This document shows, piece by piece, positions 7,824 to 61,763 of a DNA stretch of 64,000 nucleotides. The translations under genes were made by a program, and so were the position numbers. Within the stretch, counting starts at the first letter, position 1, and each line of letters starts with the position of its first letter. Location: assembly GCA_016182185.1 (NCBI GenBank), contig JACOXU010000001.1:207251-271250 (forward strand). Reading direction: 5' to 3'. The stretch is from Candidatus Levyibacteriota bacterium (GTDB lineage Bacteria; Patescibacteriota; Microgenomatia; Levybacterales; UBA12049). Below the pieces are notes generated by a model. That model ran no database searches, was not told the origin of the DNA, and saw only the letters and a program-made list of their open reading frames with translations.

Positions 7824-8375
7824 TTATCTAAACCAAGCTGCTCTACCCAGTTTGTAATTTAACTCTTTGTTTCTTTTTCCGATTTCTTTGGCGGGAACTC
7901 CACCGACTATTGTGAACTCTTCGACATCCTTTGTAACCACAGCTCCAGCTCCCACGACTGCTCCCTTTTTAATCTTTACTCCAGGCAAAATAATTGTCCT
8001 AGGTCCTACGAAAACATAATCTTCTATAGTTACCGGTGCTGTTATAGCGTGAAAATCAACGCTTTGTACATCATGCTGGGCATTATAAATCATAACCTCC
8101 GAAGCAATATCAACATGATTTCCTATAATAAGAGCGTCTCTTCCATCCAGAACCGTGCCTTCTCCTATAATCGAATCTTCACCTATCTTTATATTCTTAG
8201 GGTCATAAAAAACTGCGCCCATGTGAACAGCTGACCCTTTTCCAATGCTTAATCCTGAAATTCTGTAGAAAAATCTTCTGACATGATGAGACGGAATAAA
8301 ACCTACAACTCGCAATATAAAATTAATAAGTTCCGTAAGTATCGTATATAATCTCTTGAAAATTTTTCCAATCAT
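7824..8375 (-). CDS. hexapeptide-repeat (left-handed beta-helix) sugar O-acetyltransferase
   Basis: Tandem [LIV]G..xx hexapeptide repeats (IGEDSIIGEGTVLDG...IGNHVDIASEVMI...VGPRTIILPGVKIKKGAVVGAGAVV). Confidence 0.75.
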   Translation of the reverse strand: MIGKIFKRLYTILTELINFILRVVGFIPSHHVRRFFYRISGLSIGKGSAVHMGAVFYDPKNIKIGEDSIIGEGTVLDGRDALIIGNHVDIASEVMIYNAQHDVQSVDFHAITAPVTIEDYVFVGPRTIILPGVKIKKGAVVGAGAVVTKDVEEFTIVGGVPAKEIGKRNKELNYKLGRAAWFR

Positions 8376-9499
8376 ATACTTTCAAGTGCCTTCAATGTTT
8401 CCCTTGCTGTTTTTTCCCAAGAGAATTTTTTGACTTGTTCATAGCCTTTCGTAGCTAGTTCTCTACGAAGATCTAAGTCCTCAATAATTTTTTTTAAATT
8501 TTTCGTAATCTCTTCCACATTTTCAGGATTAAAATAAATAGCCGCTTGTCCCCCTGCTTCAGGCAGACTTGAGATATTACTGGTCAAAACCGGACATCCA
8601 TATTTCATGGCCTCAAGAATTGGTAATCCGAATCCCTCATAAAGACTAGGCAATACAAAACAAATGGCATTTTTGTAAAAATTTGGAAGCTCATCATCCG
8701 GAATTTCATGTAAAAATTTAACTCTTTTTTCTACATCAAATTTTTCAGGGGCCACAAGAATTTCTTCCCACATCCAGCCCTTTCTGCCTACAATTACTAA
8801 TTCAACATCTGTCTTAAGCTTTGAAAAAGCTTCTATAAGTCTTACAATATTTTTCCTTGGCTGAATTGTACCGACAAATAAAATGTAAGGGTTATTAATT
8901 CCGTATTTTTTCTTTAAATCTTCCATATTTTGAGATTTGAGATTTGAGATTTGAGATTTTATACCCGGATATGTAACTATGATTTTTTCGCTGGGTATTT
9001 TATATAAATTGATTATATCATCTTTGGAAGCTTGGCTTATGGTAAAAATTCGCTTGGCTTTTTTGATGGAATACCTTCCCCAGTATTTAAGTTGAATAAA
9101 GTCTTTCCCTTTAAAAAGTTGAGGGAAATGTAGATAAGAAAGGTCTAAAATTGAAATTGCGGACGGGATAGACGTAAAAAGAGGAAGATAATGGGTGGGT
9201 GTAAAAAAAATATCAGGTTTTGAATTTCCCAATATTAGCTCAAAAGACAAACCAAACATTGTCCATAATTTCCGGGGTTTTACTATTTTATAATTCCAAT
9301 TTTCTGATTCTTGAGGCATATCTGAAGCAGGATTGTCTGGAATATAAATAATGTAGTTATTTTTTTTGTCAATTTCATTAAAATTCAAAAGAAGCTCGAA
9401 GCAGTATTGTCCGCTTCCAACTCTGTTTGGCAAACCTGTTTTTGGATCGTATCCGAATCTCGACACAACAGCTTCAAAACCATTTATTCCAATTGTCAT
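8372..9499 (-). CDS. GT4-family glycosyltransferase; its interdomain linker contains a heptanucleotide repeat
   Basis: GT4 N-domain (MTIGINGFE...) and C-domain (ILFVGTIQPRKN...EAMKYGCPVLTSN). The linker KSQISNLKSQN is encoded by (TTTGAGA)x4 at 8929-8956. Confidence 0.8.
   Translation of the reverse strand: MTIGINGFEAVVSRFGYDPKTGLPNRVGSGQYCFELLLNFNEIDKKNNYIIYIPDNPASDMPQESENWNYKIVKPRKLWTMFGLSFELILGNSKPDIFFTPTHYLPLFTSIPSAISILDLSYLHFPQLFKGKDFIQLKYWGRYSIKKAKRIFTISQASKDDIINLYKIPSEKIIVTYPGIKSQISNLKSQNMEDLKKKYGINNPYILFVGTIQPRKNIVRLIEAFSKLKTDVELVIVGRKGWMWEEILVAPEKFDVEKRVKFLHEIPDDELPNFYKNAICFVLPSLYEGFGLPILEAMKYGCPVLTSNISSLPEAGGQAAIYFNPENVEEITKNLKKIIEDLDLRRELATKGYEQVKKFSWEKTARETLKALESI
8929..8960. repeat. 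heptanucleotide tandem repeat (TTTGAGA)x4.4 inside a GT4 coding sequence
   Basis: tttgaga x4 followed by tttt. The 7-nt unit is not a multiple of 3. Confidence 0.85.
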
Positions 9500-12102: not shown

Positions 12103-14166
12103 TTACCATTTTTTACTTATGTAGCCAAAAATAAGAAGACCTAGAACCAAAGAAACACTAATTAAACTTATCACAACTCCCCTATTGACCCAGTCTTGGG
12201 GGGTATAGTAGATCTCAAGCGTATAATCCCCGCCCTTGGGAAGAGTAAAGCTATTGAATAAATTACTATATTTATGGCTTTTTATACTAATCTCATTATT
12301 TCTTGCCACCCAATATTTATCAAAACTTTCAGAAAAAACAAGAACGTCGTTTTTCTGTGCATTTTTCACTGAAAGTTTATATTTCGTTGGATTAATAGAT
12401 TGAAAACTAATTTCTAAATTTTCCGACGGACTCCAAAAATGACCTCTTGGATCTAAGATTTCAAAAACTGTAATCTTCCCAAATCCCTTAACTTCCTTTA
12501 GCCAATTAATTTTTCTCACGTCTTCTATCGTTTTCAGATATAACGAATCAAAATATTTTCTGTCTTTTAAGAAAATCTCGTGTTGTGAATCAAAGGGGAC
12601 AATTACATATTTAACAGAAAGGTTTTGAAGCTCTACTTGTGATTTTTTATCATTCAGATATTTAACGACATCATAAGGATTATATTTATTTATAAATTCC
12701 TGGCCTGAAATTGAAGGATGAATATCTGATCGAAATCCAAATCTTTCATGTGTAGGGATCCAAAAAGTTCTGTAAAAAACTTTTTCTTTTGATAAGAAAT
12801 TTGCAAGTTTTACATATTCCTGAGGTAAACTTTGTTGCCTGAATGTTCCAGTCAACTCTCCAAAAAATGCAGGGCGGATTAAATACAATAGATATAAAGT
12901 TATAAATAACAAAAAAAAATTCTTTACATTTAGGATCTTGCCTTTGGTGGTTATTTGAAATTTGAAGTTAGAAATTTGAAATTTTAGCTGAGATTCCAGC
13001 AACTTATATAATTTCCAAATGCTAAATGGGATTAGTATTGAATATGAGAGAACAACTAGAAAATACCATTTAGTCGGATCTCTAAACATTACAAATCCCG
13101 GGATATGTTCAAAAAGCCATAAATATATTCCGCCAAATGGGTCATTTGCCCCTTTTGCCAAAAAGGAACCAATTAAGCCCAGGAATATAAAAAAAATTAT
13201 ATATTTTTTTTCATCTTGAGCTAATTTTTTGACAAAAAATAAACTTAAGTATGCAAGAATCGGTATTAGTAAAAACTCTGATTTCATAAAATAAACTTTA
13301 CCAAAAATATTTTCCGGCCAATATGGATGAAGCATTGATATTGTCTGTTCAAATTTTGCAAAACTAAGATATGGAACTATTTCCACCGATGAATAAGCCG
13401 GTCCAAGTTGTTGTATGGGATTTTGCTTAGTAACCAAAAGGGGAATAAGCCAAAAAGCATGAACCAAAAAAGCAATTACACCAGGAGGAACAAAAATAAC
13501 TATAAATTTCTTTATTAAGTCTATGCTATTCCTATTTGCGAGCTGAACAACTATGAAGTAAATCAATACAGAAACAATTGTCGCGTAAAATGCTCTAGGA
13601 TCAAATATTAATTGTAGGGCAATAATTAAACCGGTCAGTATTGATTTCTTAAGATCAAAGTGTTCTTCTTCAATAAGTTTTATGAAAATCCCCAAAACTA
13701 AAGGGGCGATTGCGTAGGCGATTGCAATTGCCATTTGCCCTCCCCCCACAATCATTAAAAGATATGTGTTAAAGATAAATACAAAAGGAGATAAAAAGGA
13801 AAGTTTATTCTTAGGCATCGTTATCTTAAACAAATACCAGGAGGATAAAAATGAAATCAGAATAAATGGCCAAAACCAAATTAATCTTTCTATAAATATC
13901 CATGGAAGATTAAAGTATCTGAATAACACAATCGTTGTGGTTGAAAAATAGGTATGAAGACCTAAAATAAAATTAATATTTATACCCGTATTGCTTAATA
14001 GATAACTCCATACATAGGGGAAGATGGTAAGGCTTTCTATTTGATTTTCAAATCTGAAATTCCAATCACCTGAGGAAATAACATCAAAAGAAAGCCAAGT
14101 TTTAAAAACGGCCAGAACGAGAAAAAAAATGAACAAATATGCAAGCTTTGTAATTATATTTTTCAA
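12103..14166 (-). CDS. large polytopic membrane protein, putative GT-C glycosyltransferase (687 aa) with an extracytoplasmic C-terminal domain
   Basis: At least 12 TM helices, an early-loop ISSGDW motif, a soluble roughly 250-aa C-terminal domain and a terminal TM anchor. It contains heptamer repeats at 12954-12987. Confidence 0.45.
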   Translation of the reverse strand: MKNIITKLAYLFIFFLVLAVFKTWLSFDVISSGDWNFRFENQIESLTIFPYVWSYLLSNTGININFILGLHTYFSTTTIVLFRYFNLPWIFIERLIWFWPFILISFLSSWYLFKITMPKNKLSFLSPFVFIFNTYLLMIVGGGQMAIAIAYAIAPLVLGIFIKLIEEEHFDLKKSILTGLIIALQLIFDPRAFYATIVSVLIYFIVVQLANRNSIDLIKKFIVIFVPPGVIAFLVHAFWLIPLLVTKQNPIQQLGPAYSSVEIVPYLSFAKFEQTISMLHPYWPENIFGKVYFMKSEFLLIPILAYLSLFFVKKLAQDEKKYIIFFIFLGLIGSFLAKGANDPFGGIYLWLFEHIPGFVMFRDPTKWYFLVVLSYSILIPFSIWKLYKLLESQLKFQISNFKFQITTKGKILNVKNFFLLFITLYLLYLIRPAFFGELTGTFRQQSLPQEYVKLANFLSKEKVFYRTFWIPTHERFGFRSDIHPSISGQEFINKYNPYDVVKYLNDKKSQVELQNLSVKYVIVPFDSQHEIFLKDRKYFDSLYLKTIEDVRKINWLKEVKGFGKITVFEILDPRGHFWSPSENLEISFQSINPTKYKLSVKNAQKNDVLVFSESFDKYWVARNNEISIKSHKYSNLFNSFTLPKGGDYTLEIYYTPQDWVNRGVVISLISVSLVLGLLIFGYISKKW
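12954..12987. repeat. imperfect heptanucleotide repeat (TTTGAAA-like)x4.7 inside the coding sequence of 12103..14166
   Basis: tttgaaa tttgaag ttagaaa tttgaaa ttttag, encoding KFQISNFKFQI. Confidence 0.7.
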
Positions 14167-52902: not shown

Positions 52903-54033
52903 TTAAGCTATAAAATAACCTCTAAGAAAGAAGGATGTTAATATGATTAATAATATTGATAATATTGTCAATAATAATAGTTTATATACAGTTTTTTTAA
53001 TTCTAGCCAGTAATATAAAAATGGGAAAAACAACAAGCGTATATCTTGGCATGGAAGATAACGTCCCTGAAAATGTTGGAACTATAATAGCAAATAAACT
53101 AAACAATACATAGGAAAACCTAATGTTTTTTCTAAATAACATTAGCAAAAGTAAAAATGCAGAAAAAATAATAATTTCCAAGAGAGCGATAAGATAATTA
53201 TGTGTTAGAGGATTGAGGGTAGTCAATATTTTCACATATCTAAAAAATAATTGTGGCAGTAAAATTATTTCCCCCCCGCTTCTTTCTGCCCCGAAAGCAG
53301 GCTGAGTATGAATGAATAAGAAGGAATCTTGGTAGTTAACCCATAAGTAAATCATATAAGCAAGTACTCCAGATGAAGAAATTAGAGTAAAAGAAAGAAA
53401 ATTTAAGAGATATGACTTTAAATTACTCACATTTTTAATTCTAGAAAGATAAAATTCTAGTAAAAGAGGAATCAAAAGAAAAATTCCGATTATTCTTGTT
53501 GCTGAAGCAAATCCAATTAAAATACTCGTCAAAGTAAATTTTTGCCTACGCATGAAATAAAAAGACGAAAAGACAAAGGCAAGAAATAAAGATTCAGTAT
53601 ATATACTGCCTAAAAAAAATGCTGTTGGGAAAAACAACAAGAAAATAAGAGTCCACTTTACGGTATCAGTTTTAAAATCCATTGAAGCTAACTTATATAA
53701 AAATATTAGAGAGATTAATAAACTAACATGAACAATAAATAACGCGCTGAGAATATAATTTCCCATAAAGAAAAGAGAAAAAAATTTAATTAATAACGGA
53801 AATAAGGGGAAAAATGCCTGTTGATAAATACCGTATCCATATTTAGCAATGTTTAGATAATGCTCTCCGTCAAAATTCGCCCATGGAATAAGACCTGTAA
53901 ATTGAGGGTTTAAAATAATATATTTACTGAAATATTCAACAACATAAAGAACGAGTTTCCAAATAACAAATAATATAAAAATAAATAAAAATAAATCCCT
54001 ATTGCCCTTTAATAACTTCTTCATATACGGCAT
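52903..54033 (-). CDS. polytopic membrane protein, PIG-V/DUF2029-like mannosyltransferase-type GT-C; start uncertain
   Basis: WANFDGEHYLNIAKYGY...AFFPLFPLL resembles PIG-V-type GT-C motifs. The track ORF start (54195) would overlap the upstream GT4 by 197 nt. An internal ATG at 54033 (or 54024) is preferred. Confidence 0.4.
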   Translation of the reverse strand: MPYMKKLLKGNRDLFLFIFILFVIWKLVLYVVEYFSKYIILNPQFTGLIPWANFDGEHYLNIAKYGYGIYQQAFFPLFPLLIKFFSLFFMGNYILSALFIVHVSLLISLIFLYKLASMDFKTDTVKWTLIFLLFFPTAFFLGSIYTESLFLAFVFSSFYFMRRQKFTLTSILIGFASATRIIGIFLLIPLLLEFYLSRIKNVSNLKSYLLNFLSFTLISSSGVLAYMIYLWVNYQDSFLFIHTQPAFGAERSGGEIILLPQLFFRYVKILTTLNPLTHNYLIALLEIIIFSAFLLLLMLFRKNIRFSYVLFSLFAIIVPTFSGTLSSMPRYTLVVFPIFILLARIKKTVYKLLLLTILSILLIILTSFFLRGYFIA

Positions 54034-55066
54034 TCGTTTCTTTAGCTGTTTTTTGCCAGGAAAATTTTTTGGACTGAATTGATCCTTTTTCTGAAAGTTC
54101 TTTCTGTAAATTTGTATTCGAAAAAACCTCTTCAATTCCCTCTCTAATACTATTGGCATCATAGGGATCAACATAGAAAACAGCATCTTCTGCAACTTCG
54201 GGAATTGATCCCTCTCTTGAGGTTACTACCGGACAACCGCAAGACATTGCCTCAAGAATCGGCAGTCCAAATCCCTCATACAAGCTCGGCATTGCAAAAA
54301 CTGATGCGTAATTATAAAGAGAAACTAAATCTTTTTGATCCACAAATCCAAGCCTAATAAATCTGCCATCATTTCTAATCATTTCTTGAATTTTTCTAAG
54401 ATCCTGATTCCATGGATTATCAATGTCGTAATCTTTAGATATTAAAGCTTCTCCAATCATTACGATCTTAAGGTTCGTTTTTTTAATCGCTTCGATTAAC
54501 CGAGGTAAATTCTTATTCCATGTCACATCACCTACATAAAGAACAAAACTTTCCGGCAGGCTGTATTTCTTTCTCAAATTCTGAATTTTGAATTCTGAAT
54601 TTTGAATTCTTTTGAATTCTTCTCCCGCAGCTAAATATACAACACTAATTTTATTTTCATCAATTCCGGCGAATTTGCTTATATCTCTCTTTGATGACTC
54701 AGAATCTGTAATAATAGTTTCTACCTTATTCAGCGCTTTTTTTTGTATTTGCCACCTCAATTCTCCTTTTATGCCTCTTGGAAAATAATTGGGAAAAACA
54801 AGAGGAGTTAAATCATGAACAGTGACAATTGTCTTAAATTTTTTAAAAAAGGGCAGCGTCAAAAAAAAGGGTTCAAAATAAGGGTAGTGGACTAAATCTA
54901 GTTTTTGGAGTAATTTTTCTCCTCGAGTAAAAAAAATATACTTATTTTCTGGATAGTACTTCAATAGAGCCTTTTTAAGATTTTTTAAATAAAAGCCCGT
55001 ACCCCTAACTCTGTGCTGTAAATAATTTTTCTTTTCCAATGGAGAGATATCGATACCAATTATCAT
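53999..55066 (-). CDS. GT4-family glycosyltransferase; its interdomain linker contains a heptamer/14-mer repeat
   Basis: MIIGIDISPL...EAMSCGCPVVTSREGSIPE. The linker EEFKRIQNSEFKIQNLRKK is encoded by (AATTCTGAATTTTG)x2 and related copies at 54577-54620. Confidence 0.8.
   Translation of the reverse strand: MIIGIDISPLEKKNYLQHRVRGTGFYLKNLKKALLKYYPENKYIFFTRGEKLLQKLDLVHYPYFEPFFLTLPFFKKFKTIVTVHDLTPLVFPNYFPRGIKGELRWQIQKKALNKVETIITDSESSKRDISKFAGIDENKISVVYLAAGEEFKRIQNSEFKIQNLRKKYSLPESFVLYVGDVTWNKNLPRLIEAIKKTNLKIVMIGEALISKDYDIDNPWNQDLRKIQEMIRNDGRFIRLGFVDQKDLVSLYNYASVFAMPSLYEGFGLPILEAMSCGCPVVTSREGSIPEVAEDAVFYVDPYDANSIREGIEEVFSNTNLQKELSEKGSIQSKKFSWQKTAKETNAVYEEVIKGQ
54577..54620. repeat. 14-nt tandem repeat (AATTCTGAATTTTG)x2 plus degenerate copies inside a GT4 coding sequence
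   Basis: Two exact 14-mers at 54577-54604, followed by aattcttttg aattcttc. Confidence 0.8.
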
Positions 55067-57809: not shown

Positions 57810-58333
57810 AAATTTTTCCTTCGAATAGATATAGACATTTCTATATCTTTCTTAAGATAGATTTTGGTTGAAAAAGATTTCTCCGGCCTCCAATAAACTT
57901 TTTCCGGAATTCCTTCTCTCAACATCAATAACGCTTCTATATGCTTTAGGCTCGCCTCTTTTAATAATGTCCGTTTTGAATCAATGCTCTCTTTATTAGC
58001 TTTCGAATTGTCAAGATTTGATCGAATATTATAAAAATATTCGTCAGATTTTTTTAGCGCTTTTTGCCCTAATAAAAACTGGTCATATTCAAAAAGCGTT
58101 TTTGCTTCAACTAGATATTTATCTGCTTGTTTAAGATTATAATTAAACTGCCCAAATTTACCAAAATACCAGTATTTTAAGATTTTATCCTTAATAAGAT
58201 TGATTTTGTAAAAAGGGCTTCCTGGCATAAATGATGGGTATGGAAGTACATAAGAAGATTGAGCAAAAATTGGACTATAGAAAAAAAATAAAAACATGAT
58301 AGAAAGGAGAAAAGATCGAAGAATCCACCTCAT
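57806..58333 (-). CDS. small secreted protein, paralog B of 28304..28846 (LPYPxxxPxxPxYK motif)
   Basis: Signal peptide (MRWILRSFLLSIMFLFFFYSPIFAQS), then YVLPYPSFMPGSPFYKINLIKDKIL. Its start codon sits inside the (TTTTGAA)x4 repeat. Confidence 0.55.
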   Translation of the reverse strand: MRWILRSFLLSIMFLFFFYSPIFAQSSYVLPYPSFMPGSPFYKINLIKDKILKYWYFGKFGQFNYNLKQADKYLVEAKTLFEYDQFLLGQKALKKSDEYFYNIRSNLDNSKANKESIDSKRTLLKEASLKHIEALLMLREGIPEKVYWRPEKSFSTKIYLKKDIEMSISIRRKNL

Positions 58334-59325
58334 TTTGAATTTTGAATTTTGAATTTTGAATTATTTTTGCGCCATTCCCATGCGGTTTTAACAATTGTTT
58401 CAAGATCAGAATATTTTGGCTCAAACCCCAATTCCTTTTTAATCTTTGTCGGATCCGCAATTAAAACATCTACATCCCCTGATCTTCTTGAGGAGTTTTT
58501 TACCTTAAAATCAATTCCTGATATTTTTTTTACCATTTCAAGTACTTCTTTATTTGAATATCCTTTTCCGGTTCCAACGTTGTAATAGTAATCATCTGGA
58601 TTTTCTTTTAGTTTTTGAAGCGTTAAAAGATGAGATTCAACTAAATCAATCACATGAATATAATCCCTAATACATGTTCCATCAGGGGTATCATAATCAT
58701 TTCCAAAAAGACTAAATTCGGAGTTTCCTAAGGTTGCTTTAATTGCTAGAGGAATTATATGAGTTTCAGGATCATGATCTTCTCCCATATTTCCATCAAG
58801 AGAGGCGCCAGCTGCATTAAAATAGCGAAGACTTGCAAAGCTCAATCCAAAGATTTTATTATACCAAGCAAGAATTTTCTCAACCATTAATTTACTTTCT
58901 CCATAAGGGTTAGTGGGAAGAGTCTGGTGATCCTCAGATATAGGAGTTTTAATTGGATTCCCATAAACTCCGGCCGTAGAAGAAAAAACTAAAGATTTAA
59001 TATTGTGCCTTACAGCTTGCTCGATCAAATTAAGAGATCCAAGAGTATTGTTTTGAAAATACAATTTGGGATTTTCCATAGATTCTGCCATAGATATATA
59101 TCCTGCGAAATGGATCACGGCATCGAACTTATCGGTGGAAAATGTATTTTCTAGTATTTCAGGATTTAAAAGGTCTCCTTGAACAAACTTTGCTTTCGTA
59201 TCAATAGCTTCTCTTTGACCGCGCTCCAAACTATCAAGCACAACCACATCATCTCCATTTTTTAGAAGTCGCTTAACCATAAAGCTTCCAATATAACCTG
59301 CCCCACCCGTAACCAAGATTTTCAT
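58330..59325 (-). CDS. galE: UDP-glucose 4-epimerase
   Basis: MKILVTGGAGYIGSFMVKRL...AVIHFAGY...FSSTAGVYG...YGESK matches GalE throughout. The C-terminus NNSKFKIQNSK is encoded by a heptamer repeat. Confidence 0.8.
   Translation of the reverse strand: MKILVTGGAGYIGSFMVKRLLKNGDDVVVLDSLERGQREAIDTKAKFVQGDLLNPEILENTFSTDKFDAVIHFAGYISMAESMENPKLYFQNNTLGSLNLIEQAVRHNIKSLVFSSTAGVYGNPIKTPISEDHQTLPTNPYGESKLMVEKILAWYNKIFGLSFASLRYFNAAGASLDGNMGEDHDPETHIIPLAIKATLGNSEFSLFGNDYDTPDGTCIRDYIHVIDLVESHLLTLQKLKENPDDYYYNVGTGKGYSNKEVLEMVKKISGIDFKVKNSSRRSGDVDVLIADPTKIKKELGFEPKYSDLETIVKTAWEWRKNNSKFKIQNSK
58333..58362. repeat. heptanucleotide tandem repeat (TTTTGAA)x4 spanning the galE stop codon and the next gene's start
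   Basis: Four exact copies at 58333-58360. It encodes the GalE C-terminus KFKIQNSK-stop and overlaps the ATG of 57806..58333. Confidence 0.85.
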
Positions 59326-60104
59326 AATTTTAAGTACTTAATATATGATACAGGAAATCGAAGAGATGAGAAAAGAGAGAAGACAAATCCTGGCCACAAA
59401 TCCATAAAACCTTTATGCCTTAAATAAGTAAAAAGAAACCAATAAACAGGTTTAAAAGTTAAGGAGGCGCCTGCAAAAATTATTTTGTAAAAAATATTTT
59501 TATTTTTTAGCTTTTCTTTAATTTGCGATGCAATAAGATCAGTATATCTATCCCACTTTAAAAGATAATCGTTAAAATCTTTATATGGATAATGTAATAA
59601 CGGGTTTTTAAGATATGTGACTTCTCCTTCAACTTCTGCTTGTTCATGAACATCCTTCTGAGGAAGCCTTCCTTTTCCCCTTTTATACAGTCTTAAAGTA
59701 TAGTCAGGATACTGCCCGCCCTTCATAAGAAATCTACCCAAAAACCAATTTTTTCTCGGAATCCAATATCCATTAACATGACTGACTATTGATGACTGAC
59801 TATTGATGACTGACTTAATCTCTTTTCTAAGTCCTTTGGAGACCACTTCATCTGCATCAAGTTGCAAGATCCAATCAGAAGTTGCCATATCTATAGCCAT
59901 TTGCTTATTGATATGAAAAATAGGTTTATTTGTTGTGATTTTAATTTTGGCTCCGAATTGCTTCGCCTTATCAACTGTCTTGTCACTTGAAGCTCCATCA
60001 ACAACAACAATCTCATCTGCCAAACCATCTACGCTTTCAAGACAAGCTGGAAGATTCTTTTCCTCATTGTAAGTTGCCAAAACCACAGACAAAGTTGCCT
60101 TCAT
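59322..60104 (-). CDS. GT2-family glycosyltransferase; contains a 14-bp tandem repeat
   Basis: LSVVLATYNEEKNL...IVVVDGASSDKT...LDADEVV. The segment KSVINSQSSIVSHVNG is encoded by (ATGACTGACTATTG)x2.7 at 59779-59818. Confidence 0.75.
   Translation of the reverse strand: MKATLSVVLATYNEEKNLPACLESVDGLADEIVVVDGASSDKTVDKAKQFGAKIKITTNKPIFHINKQMAIDMATSDWILQLDADEVVSKGLRKEIKSVINSQSSIVSHVNGYWIPRKNWFLGRFLMKGGQYPDYTLRLYKRGKGRLPQKDVHEQAEVEGEVTYLKNPLLHYPYKDFNDYLLKWDRYTDLIASQIKEKLKNKNIFYKIIFAGASLTFKPVYWFLFTYLRHKGFMDLWPGFVFSLFSSLRFPVSYIKYLKL
59779..59818. repeat. 14-nt tandem repeat (ATGACTGACTATTG)x2.7 inside a GT2 coding sequence
   Basis: atgactgactattg atgactgactattg atgactgact. Confidence 0.85.
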
Positions 60105-60119
60105 AATACATATGATACC

Positions 60120-61763
60120 CTAAAATTTCGTTTTTATAAACTTGAATAAGTAAAAAGTTAATATACCAAATAAAACAAACGTTGAAGCAATATTGGAAAA
60201 CAATCTTAATTTAGTTTCTCTGTAAACAATTTCAATATCGTGTTTTCCTTCCGGGACGTAAAAGGTTATTAAGCCTCGGAAACGTTGATCTTGAAACTCA
60301 ACTATTGCAGGTTTACTGTCCAACAAAACCGTCCAGCCTGGAAAATATAATGTATTTTCAAGAATTCTGCTTGTTTTCTGGGCGTTAATTTTATAAATAC
60401 GTTTCGTCGTTGACCTTTGAACGAGCTCTATTGATGCTTTTCCGTCAATCAGCTGTATTTGCTCTAAAGCTCTCTTTTCCATAAACCTCACAGACCAGAT
60501 TGGGGAACTTTCACCGGTGTCAGTTGTGCTGTTATAAATTCCAGTGTAAAAGTTTTCAGGTTTGTAGAGATAATCTATCGGCCTCATATAATCTTTGCTC
60601 AAAAACAAAAGTAAAATAATCGCAAAGACTGTAAACCAGATTCGAGATTTACGAAAAACCTGCTCAAAAACGACTGCTCCTAATACAGACGTTGTGAAAA
60701 CCGGAATTGCCAAGAATCGCCAGGGAAATTGAAAATTTTGAAGGAGAATAAATTTCTGCCAAATAAAACTAGAGATAGGAAGCATTAAAAAAATCGCAAT
60801 TAATGTATAGACGATTAATCCTAAAGAGAATACCAGGTTTTTTCTATCTTTTTTTATATAAAATTTAGTAAGTAATATAATAGACAAAATAAAACTAGCC
60901 CAATGTAGAATTCCAAGTTGGACCGTAAATTGTCCGGATATACCATAGCTCCACGGTCCATATAGTAAATCTCTGAAATTTACAAACCTTCCGATATAAC
61001 CTCCGGCCGTCACAATATTCCTTAATGTATATTTTCCCTCCAAAAGTCCCGGTATCCAGAAGAATGCAGAAAGGCCGAATCCGATGAGCATTAAAGAAGT
61101 AAGATTTATGATATAAGATTTACGATTTTTAGATAAATTAAGAAGAAAAAATCCATAAAAAATAATAAATGGCATAAGCATAAGGCTAATGGCATTATGA
61201 GAAAGAATTAGGAACGCCAAGGAAAAACCTCCTAGAAAAATGTTGTTCATATTTTTCTTTTTATAAATACTATAAATAAAAAATAAAACAAGAGGTATAA
61301 AAGCAAAAGCGAGATGCTCTCCTATATCTCCCCTTACATAAACTTCAACAAATCTATAAGGCGCATGTGTATATAAAACTGCTCCAAAAAGAGCAGAAAA
61401 CTTGTTAAGAAAAGATGATAACCATAAATACATAAATATTATTGATAATATTGTGCCTAATCCGAAAACTATTTTCACTGAATCAACCAATGAAAATCCC
61501 AAGAAATGAAAAAATGAGGCTGTATAAGATGGAAAAGGATACAGAAACTCAAGGATCGGATGGCCATATCCCCAATTAAGGTTCCCCGCCCAACGAGGAA
61601 TAATATTTCCCTCGGAAAGATTTTGGTAAAAATTTGCAATTCTTGCCACATGATCCTGTCCATCATGAGTAATCGGAAGTCCTGAATGGAAAAGAGATAT
61701 CGCTGGAATAATACCGATAAAAATTAAAACTAAATATAAAAAATGTTTTTTATATTTTTTCAT
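60120..61763 (-). CDS. polytopic membrane protein, uncharacterised GT-C-like family (paralog of 55063..56697)
   Basis: PITHDGQDHVARIANF...NIIPRWAGNLNWGYGHPILEFLYPFPSY. The C-terminus has YFPGWTV...VPEGKHDIE and a TM anchor. Confidence 0.45.
   Translation of the reverse strand: MKKYKKHFLYLVLIFIGIIPAISLFHSGLPITHDGQDHVARIANFYQNLSEGNIIPRWAGNLNWGYGHPILEFLYPFPSYTASFFHFLGFSLVDSVKIVFGLGTILSIIFMYLWLSSFLNKFSALFGAVLYTHAPYRFVEVYVRGDIGEHLAFAFIPLVLFFIYSIYKKKNMNNIFLGGFSLAFLILSHNAISLMLMPFIIFYGFFLLNLSKNRKSYIINLTSLMLIGFGLSAFFWIPGLLEGKYTLRNIVTAGGYIGRFVNFRDLLYGPWSYGISGQFTVQLGILHWASFILSIILLTKFYIKKDRKNLVFSLGLIVYTLIAIFLMLPISSFIWQKFILLQNFQFPWRFLAIPVFTTSVLGAVVFEQVFRKSRIWFTVFAIILLLFLSKDYMRPIDYLYKPENFYTGIYNSTTDTGESSPIWSVRFMEKRALEQIQLIDGKASIELVQRSTTKRIYKINAQKTSRILENTLYFPGWTVLLDSKPAIVEFQDQRFRGLITFYVPEGKHDIEIVYRETKLRLFSNIASTFVLFGILTFYLFKFIKTKF

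What the first reader, a model, noticed from the sequence alone, without database searches (positions are those of the whole stretch)
59779..59818. 14-bp tandem repeat (2.7 copies) inside a GT2 gene
ATGACTGACTATTG repeated in 59322..60104 encodes KSVINSQSSIVSHVNG in an insertion between GT2 core motifs. A 14-nt unit shifts the frame on expansion or contraction. Its sequence is unrelated to the heptamer family, so it is an independent candidate phase-variation site in the same locus.
Basis: seen in the sequence. Interest (0 to 1): 0.5.

Follow-up and report, generated by a model that had tools for sequence, protein, structure and literature searches.

The report
Frameshift-prone repeat in a glycosyltransferase gene
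A perfect 14-base repeat inside a sugar-transferase gene of a Levybacteria (CPR) genome is this genome's version of a 7-base repeat hotspot found at the same spot in many related species, where gaining or losing one unit demonstrably breaks the gene, so it is probably a slow genetic on/off switch for a cell-surface sugar.

Summary
In detail: 59778..59815 is a perfect 14-nt x 2.7 tandem array, with none expected by chance. It lies in a 260-aa GT2 gene (59322..60104, minus strand) and encodes residues 97-109, after the DxD motif. The gene is intact (ON). Losing one unit gives a 105-aa product; gaining one or more gives 110 aa.

The unit is two diverged heptamers (AGTCAGT+CATCAAT). Of 81 genes (80 orthologs plus the window), 19 carry perfect 7- or 14-nt tandems at this loop, with many different units.

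Two relatives about 25% diverged in DNA (L083, L084) have the same 14-nt x 2.7 array in the same register. Their unit differs at the same two positions in nearly every copy, which indicates concerted evolution.

In three other species, alleles differ only by whole heptamers and split the gene: 4.4/3.4/2.4 copies, a 14-nt loss, and an out-of-frame allele in two assemblies.

Best reading: a heptamer-derived, slippage-prone frameshift switch, as in SSR phase variation and NeuO, here in a CPR surface-glycan locus. Switching in this genome is inferred, not shown. A non-adaptive, heptamer-specific mutational hotspot remains a serious rival.

The parts
59778..59815 (-). Perfect tandem array. The coding-strand unit is AGTCAGTCATCAAT x 2.71, i.e. 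two diverged heptamers AGTCAGT + CATCAAT. It encodes K97-H109, and the three copies are read in three different frames.
   Evidence: TRF; sequence; shuffles; lag-14 self-match 24/24 and lag-7 self-match 17/31
59322..60104 (-). GT2 glycosyltransferase gene, 260 aa, currently intact (ON). It is identical to P0001, from a Candidatus Levybacteria MAG.
   Evidence: ORF; Pfam PF00535 on residues 6-104; 100% hit to P0001 and a large ortholog family of 255-270 aa; GT-A fold closest to SunS/ThuS and to GmaR by sequence
59850..59858 (-). DxD motif (D83-A84-D85), 11 codons upstream of the array. D83 and D85 are invariant.
   Evidence: Alignment A1, invariant columns D83 and D85
59730..59774 (-). Highly conserved segment NGYWIPRKNWFLGRF (residues 111-125) immediately downstream of the array. 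It opens the C-terminal ~150 aa that go out of frame after any single-unit change.
   Evidence: Alignment A1; simulated +/- unit products; out-of-frame readings of this segment seen in ortholog OFF alleles
60120..61763 (-). Upstream neighbour: a 547-aa polytopic membrane protein (PTPS_related / PMT_2, GT-C-like). It is syntenic in the orthologs. It has a decayed 14-nt x 1.9 repeat at 61100..61126, at a site that carries heptamer arrays in other species.
   Evidence: Pfam; synteny; TRF; homologous position
58330..59325 (-). Downstream neighbour: an NAD-dependent sugar epimerase (GalE-like), with a heptamer array (TCAAAAT x 4.4, 58332..58362) at its C-terminus.
   Evidence: Pfam PF01370, E=3.5e-58; TRF; heptamer arrays at the same position in orthologs

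Best explanation
The 14-nt x 2.7 array is this genome's version of a heptanucleotide simple-sequence repeat. It has partly decayed into a compound unit of two heptamers. It occupies the same helix-end/loop of this GT2 gene throughout Levybacteria and related CPR lineages.

Proposed mechanism: the repeat copies mispair during replication or repair (slipped-strand mispairing), adding or removing whole units. Neither 7 nor 14 is a multiple of 3. A one-unit change therefore puts the conserved C-terminal ~150 residues out of frame and yields a 105- or 110-aa stub, which is a null allele. The reverse slip restores the gene.

In this window the gene is ON. The array cannot expand even by three units, because a fourth unit creates an in-frame TAG at the unit junction. 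The present length is therefore the only ON state found among the unit changes simulated (-2 to +3). The gene sits between GT-C-like membrane glycosyltransferases and a sugar epimerase, so the switch would toggle a cell-surface glycan modification.

Shown here:
- The repeat is real.
- It derives from heptamers.
- Its units evolved in concert relative to homologous arrays.
- ON and OFF alleles differing by whole units exist in three orthologous species.

Inferred: switching occurs in this genome (probably slowly, given only 2.7 copies), the switch is adaptively maintained, and the OFF state changes the surface glycan.
For: 1. The repeat is real and not due to chance.

2. Frame consequences: -1 unit gives 105 aa and +1 unit gives 110 aa.

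3. Of 81 genes (80 orthologs plus the window), 19 have perfect period-7 or period-14 tandems of at least 2 copies in this loop. Units differ between species: AGCCATC x4.4, AATCATC x4.7, AATTGGA x4.6, CAAATCA x4.7, TCCAAAA x3.3, TCTCAAT x3.3 and others. Density in the loop is about 54-63 times that in the rest of the gene. Of 141 full-length homologs, 54 show 7-aa periodicity in the loop peptide.

4. Concerted evolution. L083 and L084 are about 75% identical to the window in DNA. They carry the same 14-nt x 2.7 array in the same register. Each is nearly perfect internally (24/24, 23/24 and 22/24 matches at lag 14). The window unit AGTCAGTCATCAAT differs from AATCAATCATCAAT at the same two positions in every copy. 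Because the copies are read in three frames, selection on the protein cannot explain this.

5. Direct ON/OFF polymorphism in orthologs:
- Species A: L004 (4.4 copies, intact), L081 (3.4) and L205 (2.4). The heptamers are the only variable columns in 810 nt.
- Species B: L207 versus L206 differ by -14 nt in an ATCAAAT array, with 4 mismatches in 3.4 kb.
- Species C: L208 and L209 are identical. The two gene halves are in different frames across an AAATCTC array, in two independent assemblies on contigs of 215 kb and 159 kb.
- A fourth case is seen only at protein level (P0161).

6. The other long heptamer arrays in the window also sit in sugar-pathway genes: three GT4 genes and the epimerase.
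Against: - No length variant of this species could be found. P0001 is seen on one contig only and is not indexed for contig look-up. No near-identical truncated fragment exists in the protein collection.
- With only 2.7 copies of a 14-nt unit, 24 nt remain for mispairing, so the slip rate is expected to be low compared with classic contingency loci.
- The same copy number is kept in three lineages about 25% diverged.
- All 80 species-representative orthologs are in frame.
- These genomes appear to make only heptamer SSRs: 25 observed against 0.8 expected over 519 kb, with no other period comparably enriched (period 6: 9 vs 5.6). These arrays also occur at gene 3' ends and in a membrane-protein loop. 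The absence of in-frame repeat periods in the GT2 loop is therefore not in itself evidence of selection for frameshifting.
- OFF alleles could simply be loss-of-function variants.
Confidence: 0.6

Rival explanations
1. Non-adaptive mutational hotspot. A lineage-specific process generates heptamer duplications wherever the protein tolerates extra or variable residues, such as loops, inter-domain linkers and C-termini. The window's array is an evolutionary fossil that is effectively stable at 2.7 copies. The OFF alleles in relatives are ordinary loss-of-function or pseudogene variants, not a regulated bet-hedging switch.
For: - Heptamers are the only clearly enriched SSR class across 519 kb of related loci.
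- They also occur at the epimerase C-terminus and in a loop of a transmembrane protein, where no ON/OFF logic is evident.
- The window array has a low copy number and cannot expand in frame.
- The copy number is identical in three diverged lineages.
- 80 of 80 species representatives are intact.
Against: - Concerted evolution of the units shows the array is still turning over by misalignment.
- Frameshifted alleles reach assembly-consensus level in at least three species, so the OFF state is viable.
- Perfect, non-decayed arrays persist at the same codon positions across many species although each slip is a null mutation in an otherwise strongly conserved gene.
- Several other glycosyltransferase genes in the same genome carry such arrays, the pattern typical of contingency-locus sets.
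Confidence: 0.3
2. Protein-level function. The repeat is kept because the encoded peptide (KSVINSQSSIVSH) or its length tunes enzyme activity or acts as a linker, as the heptad-encoding repeats do in NeuO. Frameshifting would then be incidental.
For: The segment forms the end of helix 90-104 plus a short loop next to the DxD motif. Loop length varies between 12 and 29 aa in the family. [quoted passage not shown]
Against: - Loop peptides differ completely between species, for example PSAISHQPSA, IGNWKLEIGN, KSQITNHKSQ and NSELRTQNSEL.
- The three DNA copies are read in three frames, so identity at the DNA level gives no repeat at the protein level.
- A nucleotide change shared by all copies (A to G at two unit positions) has different amino-acid effects in each copy.
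- The array cannot lengthen in frame.
Confidence: 0.07
3. Chance similarity or an assembly artefact.
For: None beyond the general caveat that this is a MAG contig.
Against: - 0 of 100 shuffles give a comparable repeat.
- The 38-nt array is shorter than a typical sequencing read or assembly k-mer (general knowledge).
- Homologous arrays occur in independent assemblies L083, L084 and L001.
Confidence: 0.02

Closest known systems
NeuO, the phase-variable polysialic-acid O-acetyltransferase of E. coli K1 (CUS-3 prophage): a heptanucleotide (AAGACTC)n VNTR inside the ORF
   Same: A heptanucleotide tandem repeat lies inside the coding sequence of a surface-glycan-modifying enzyme. Strand slippage changes the unit number, and a full-length protein is made only when the frame is kept. 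ON and OFF genotypes are both common in genome collections (PMC13001214). The ortholog arrays found here behave the same way: 4.4, 3.4 and 2.4 copies.
   Different: - NeuO has 3-53 units at the 5' end. All three frames of its unit are open, so every multiple of 3 is ON and array length tunes activity.
- The window array has 2.7 copies of a 14-nt compound unit at codons 97-109 of 260. It has a single ON length, because a fourth unit creates a TAG.
- The enzyme family differs (GT2) and so does the organism (a CPR bacterium, not a prophage in E. coli).
- Switching has been measured for NeuO but not here.
SSR-mediated phase variation of LOS/LPS/capsule glycosyltransferases in Haemophilus, Neisseria and Campylobacter (contingency loci)
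   Same: Intragenic repeats whose unit is not a multiple of 3 lie in several glycosyltransferase genes of one genome. Slipped-strand mispairing gives frameshift ON/OFF states, and the genes are non-essential surface-structure genes (PMC2651432; PMC8437040 and PMC11868660). The window has such arrays in the GT2 gene, three GT4 genes and an epimerase.
   Different: The classic loci use mono- to pentanucleotide tracts with many units, at measured rates that depend on repeat number, in host-adapted pathogens. Here the unit is 7 or 14 nt with 2-5 copies. The unit sequence turns over between species while the position is conserved. The organisms are environmental Patescibacteria. I found no paper linking CPR/Patescibacteria to SSR phase variation.
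Intragenic heptanucleotide SSRs of H. influenzae, e.g. (AATTTTG)14 within hmw1A and (AACAACC)n in a TonB-dependent receptor gene
   Same: Heptanucleotide units inside ORFs, with frameshifted or truncated alleles attributed to length variation (PMC2651432).
   Different: These are strain-specific rarities in a genome dominated by tetranucleotide SSRs. In the Levybacteria-type loci, heptamers are the only clearly enriched SSR class.
Tandem repeats in Borg elements of Methanoperedens
   Same: Perfect, rapidly evolving tandem repeats inside ORFs of uncultivated environmental microbes, creating variable protein segments (PMC9879509, listed).
   Different: From my own knowledge, Borg intragenic repeats have unit lengths divisible by three and add disordered regions without frameshifting. 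Here the units are 7 or 14 nt, and single-unit changes destroy the reading frame.

Membership tests
SSR contingency (phase-variable) locus | Tandem repeat within the ORF (or promoter) whose unit length is not a multiple of 3, longer than expected from base composition | tested here: met
   14-nt x 2.7 perfect array in the ORF, against 0.0 expected
SSR contingency (phase-variable) locus | A unit-number change switches the gene between full-length and truncated products | tested here: met
   Simulated products: -1 unit gives 105 aa and +1 gives 110 aa, against 260 aa. Real examples exist in orthologs: P0122, P0165, P0163 and P0154
SSR contingency (phase-variable) locus | Repeat-number polymorphism among near-identical genomes or within a population of the same species | tested here: inconclusive
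   For the window's species no second sequence could be found. For three orthologous species the feature is met
SSR contingency (phase-variable) locus | High-frequency, reversible switching (measured rate) with a phenotypic consequence | not testable with these tools
   This needs read-level or culture data. Concerted evolution of the units shows historical misalignment only.
NeuO-type heptanucleotide coding VNTR | Unit of exactly 7 nt | tested here: not met
   The window unit is 14 nt, with lag-7 self-identity of only 17/31. Orthologs L004, L005, L010, L014, L045 and L060 do meet this feature.
NeuO-type heptanucleotide coding VNTR | All three reading frames of the unit are open, so any multiple of three units is ON and length is freely variable | tested here: not met
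   +1, +2 and +3 units all stop at 110 aa because of a TAG at the unit junction
NeuO-type heptanucleotide coding VNTR | Homology to the NeuO acetyltransferase and location of the array at the 5' end of the ORF | tested here: not met
   The protein is a GT2, and the array is at codons 97-109 of 260
Glycosyltransferase family 2 (GT-A fold) | Match to the GT2 profile, a DxD motif, and a GT-A fold | tested here: met
   PF00535, 66.4 bits against a cut-off of 23.3; invariant D83 and D85; Foldseek hits to SunS, ThuS, TarS, GtrB and ArnC; GmaR by sequence, E=3.2e-21

The most novel reading that the evidence does not exclude
Levybacteria and neighbouring CPR lineages may use heptanucleotide repeats as a lineage-wide contingency system. 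Arrays sit at conserved positions in several genes of a surface-glycan cluster: the GT2 loop, GT4 inter-domain linkers, a loop of a GT-C-like membrane protein, and the epimerase 3' end. The position persists over long evolutionary times while the unit sequence turns over. This would give combinatorial, stochastic ON/OFF variation of the cell envelope in ultra-small environmental bacteria, perhaps against phages or in host attachment. It would be driven by an unexplained, heptamer-specific slippage process.
Probability: 0.35. Interest if true: 0.75.

Novelty: new member of a known kind. Interest (0 to 1): 0.55.

Why it matters
SSR phase variation is regarded mainly as a trait of host-adapted pathogens. 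The data here show whole-unit, frame-breaking repeat polymorphism in a conserved glycosyltransferase gene of uncultivated groundwater and sediment CPR bacteria. The hotspot keeps its position across many species while the repeat unit changes.

If it acts as a switch, it gives a concrete and testable handle on how these episymbiont-like cells vary their surface. It would also mean that split glycosyltransferase genes in CPR MAGs should not automatically be read as assembly errors or pseudogenes.

The exclusive preference for 7-nt units is itself unexplained and may point to a peculiarity of replication or repair in this lineage.

Tried and rejected
1. The metagenome scan with ARTCARTCATCAATARTCART, intended to find copy-number variants of this array type, returned 120 loci. 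None encodes the GT2 gene by tblastn. They are unrelated AATCAAT/CATCAAT arrays in other, mostly GC-richer contigs.

2. P0148 on L082 looked like an OFF allele, but the split is a scaffold gap (a run of N with duplicated flanks). I rejected it as an artefact.

3. The search with the N-terminal half found no fragment close to 100% identity. The best hit was 77%. There is therefore no evidence for or against OFF alleles in this species.

4. The exact-protein contig look-up for P0001 found nothing on record.

5. P0171 is frameshifted after the loop, and P0221 and P0240 are truncated at the DADE motif. P0152 and P0246 have odd tails. None of these is attributable to the repeat, and I did not count them.

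6. A non-coding role is unlikely:
- No Rfam match at E of 1 or below in 58800..60600.
- No unusual single-strand DNA structure (z = -0.35).
- No ORF of 50 aa or more on the + strand over the array.

7. I first took the enrichment of period 7 over periods 3, 6 and 9 in the loop as evidence of selection for frameshifting. I downgraded this after one search showed these genomes make essentially only heptamer SSRs.

Full report
**Observation.** The + strand at 59778..59815 reads ATGACTGACTATTG ATGACTGACTATTG ATGACTGACT. TRF reports period 14, 2.7 copies and 100% identity, with score 76, the highest in the window. The window is 32.9% GC. It holds two perfect period-14 tandems of at least 2 copies, against 0.0 expected, and 0 of 100 order-1 shuffles gave a comparable array. 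The array lies in the minus-strand ORF 59322..60104 (260 aa) and encodes K97-H109 of ...EIKSVINSQSSIVSHVNGYW.... Nothing else explains the site:
- no + strand ORF of 50 aa or more overlaps it;
- there is no Rfam match;
- there is no unusual DNA secondary structure.

**The gene.** Pfam assigns GT2 (PF00535, residues 6-104). NCBIfam gives only sub-threshold GT2 equivalogs. The exact protein is P0001 from a Candidatus Levybacteria MAG. Thousands of homologs exist, and the best 120 are 255-297 aa long, mostly 255-270 aa, and 67-80% identical.

In alignment A1 the array-encoded segment is the only length-variable part of the protein. It lies between the invariant D83/D85 (DxD) and the almost invariant NGYWIPRKNWFLGRF. 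An AlphaFold model (mean pLDDT 77.5, with the N-terminal domain near or above 90) places residues 97-109 at the end of helix 90-104 and in the loop before strand 110-117. The fold is GT-A. The nearest solved structures are SunS and ThuS, and GmaR is nearest by sequence.

The neighbours are GT-C-like polytopic membrane proteins (PTPS_related, PMT_2, YfhO), a GalE-like epimerase and a DUF5667 protein. The same synteny is seen in the orthologs. This is a cell-envelope glycosylation cluster.

**What orthologs have at this site.** I fetched 80 species-representative loci and extracted the loop DNA. Many carry perfect heptamer tandems at exactly this position, and the units differ between species:
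- L004 AGCCATC x4.4
- L005 AATCATC x4.7
- L014 AATTGGA x4.6
- L045 CAAATCA x4.7
- L010 TCCAAAA x3.3
- L060 TCTCAAT x3.3
- L003, L011 and L053 with about 2.7 copies

The closest relative, L001 (78% nt identity), has a 14-nt unit made of two heptamers (AAGTCAA AACTCAA x2.1).

Across 81 genes (80 orthologs plus the window), 19 have a perfect period-7 or period-14 tandem of at least 2 copies in the loop. The density of such tandems there is about 54-63 times that in the rest of the gene. Periods 3, 6 and 9 are not enriched. Of 141 full-length homologs, 54 show 7-aa periodicity in the loop peptide.

**The window's 14-mer is heptamer-derived and evolves in concert.** L083 (P0004) and L084 (P0005) are only 74-75% identical to the window gene in DNA. 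Both have the same architecture in the same register. On the coding strand they read A|AATCAATCATCAAT|AATCAATCATCAAT|AATCAATGAT. The window reads A|AGTCAGTCATCAAT|AGTCAGTCATCAAT|AGTCAGTCAT.

The L083 unit is two heptamers that match at 6 of 7 positions, and CATCAAT is a rotation of L005's AATCATC. The arrays are internally near-perfect in each lineage (24/24, 23/24 and 22/24 matches at lag 14). Between lineages the unit differs at the same two positions in every copy of L083, and in all but the first position of L084's first copy (AGTCAAT).

The three copies are read in three frames, so protein-level selection cannot produce this pattern. Under independent site evolution at 25% divergence, one lineage would keep 24/24 matches with a probability of only about 2e-3. 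The arrays have therefore been homogenised repeatedly by misaligned pairing. That is the same process that changes copy number.

**Direct ON/OFF evidence in relatives.** Cluster look-ups and a search with the N-terminal half turned up truncated proteins on long contigs. These were verified at the DNA level:
- *Species A.* L004 has AGCCATC x4.4 and is intact; its protein is recorded on 24 contigs. L081 has x3.4 and L205 has x2.4, and both are split genes. The heptamers are the only variable columns in 810 aligned nt.
- *Species B.* L207 is intact. L206 lacks 14 nt of an ATCAAAT array, with 4 mismatches over 3.4 kb.
- *Species C.* L208 and L209 are identical across the gene (nt 1501-2260 compared). 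The N- and C-terminal halves are in different frames across an AAATCTC array, in two independent assemblies (215-kb and 159-kb contigs).
- *A fourth case* (P0161) is seen only at protein level.

These arrays are at most 33 nt long. As general knowledge, that is shorter than a typical read or assembly k-mer, so collapse during assembly is unlikely.

**Consequences in the window.** The gene is ON. The -1 allele ends at 105 aa and the -2 allele at 117 aa. The +1, +2 and +3 alleles all end at 110 aa, because a complete third unit followed by a fourth creates CAA|TAG. Among the simulated unit changes (-2 to +3), only the present 38-nt length gives a full-length protein. Unlike pure heptamer arrays whose three frames are all open, this array cannot vary in length in frame.

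**Interpretation and limits.** The mechanism I commit to is a slippage-prone, heptamer-derived SSR that acts as a frameshift ON/OFF switch for a surface-glycan GT2. It is analogous to NeuO and to the phase-variable LOS glycosyltransferases (PMC13001214; PMC2651432; PMC11868660). Four things are shown: the repeat, its heptamer origin, its concerted evolution, and whole-unit ON/OFF alleles in three related species. Three things are not shown: switching in this genome, its rate and its adaptive value. No second sequence of this species was obtainable. With 2.7 copies, the rate is likely to be low.

The main rival is a non-adaptive hotspot. Over 519 kb of related loci, period 7 is the only clearly enriched SSR class: 25 arrays against 0.8 expected. 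The arrays cluster at three conserved positions, namely the GT2 loop, a loop of the upstream membrane protein and the epimerase 3' end. The lack of in-frame periods in the loop may therefore reflect how the repeats arise rather than selection for frameshifting. Why the lineage favours 7-nt units is unexplained.

**Novelty.** Literature searches combining CPR/Patescibacteria with SSR or phase-variation terms found nothing relevant. The mechanism is a known kind, so I rate this a new member of that kind in a new lineage. The interesting twists are that the position is conserved while the unit turns over, that the window's unit is a compound 14-mer, and that the SSRs of this lineage are essentially all heptamers.

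Noticed in passing
window 8929-8959, 54577-54610, 1577-1613, 12953-12984: Other long heptamer-based arrays all lie inside minus-strand ORFs:
- 8929-8959: TCTCAAA x4.4 on the coding strand, in GT4 gene 8372-9499, in the linker between its two Rossmann domains (KSQISNLKSQN).
- 54577-54610: a 14-nt super-unit AATTCTG+AATTTTG x2.4, in GT4 gene 53999-55066, also in the inter-domain linker.
- 1577-1613: an imperfect array in GT4 gene 1157-2353.
- 12953-12984: an array in a 687-aa ORF with no Pfam family.
These are likely further frameshift-prone sites.
   Followed up: partly
window 58332-58362; L043 4738-4770, L059 4752-4771, L060 4721-4743, L002 4731-4748: A heptamer array (TCAAAAT x4.4 on the coding strand) encodes the last residues of the GalE-like epimerase (NNSKFKIQNSK*) and overlaps the start of the downstream DUF5667 gene. 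Orthologs carry different heptamers at the same C-terminal position. A slip here would alter only the tail and perhaps translational coupling to the downstream gene.
   Followed up: partly
window 61100-61126; L005 1993-2024, L011 1991-2011, L012 1990-2007, L059 1989-2007: There is a third position-conserved heptamer hotspot, in a loop between transmembrane segments of the upstream PTPS_related/PMT_2 membrane protein. The window has only a decayed 14-nt x1.9 repeat there. L005 has ATTTCTC x4.6.
   Followed up: partly
L085-L204 (JGI metagenome contigs): AATCAAT/CATCAAT-type heptamer arrays occur in at least 120 unrelated metagenome contigs, mostly with GC-rich flanking sequence. By eye they often abut what look like gene ends or intergenic regions, and several share flanking motifs (for example ...cgtttagcgtctccccagagcagttcgaggtcgtag). 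This is a different, widespread heptamer-repeat phenomenon.
   Followed up: no
P0131 vs P0012; P0133 vs P0022 (clusters at 90% identity): Within clusters of near-identical proteins, the loop together with about 10 residues upstream is replaced wholesale by a different heptamer-derived sequence (NSELRTQNSELGY or IKYQISNIKYQGI instead of SHKSYVLSPKSDI or SHKSYILSPKSDI), while the rest of the protein is identical or nearly so. This suggests recombination or very fast turnover confined to this segment.
   Followed up: no
L206 2290-2652, L207 2304-2666: In species B a 120-aa gene with bAvd / 23S_rRNA_IVP Pfam hits sits between the GT2 gene and the epimerase. The window has no such gene. From my own knowledge, such Avd-like proteins act as accessory factors of diversity-generating retroelements.
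   Followed up: no
P0170, P0175, P0209, P0222, P0225 and others: A sister subfamily has a conserved insertion of about 35-45 aa (…MTDDEIxxYQxxLPxRKLFLRHQxLLExRDGxIG…) at the same loop. This site is therefore the general insertion-tolerant point of the fold.
   Followed up: no
L001, L002, L011, L013 and other record titles: Many contigs that carry this Levybacteria-type gene cluster are titled 'uncultured Gammaproteobacteria', 'Candidatus Pacearchaeota archaeon' or 'Deltaproteobacteria' in their records. These are probably taxonomic mislabels of MAGs.
   Followed up: no
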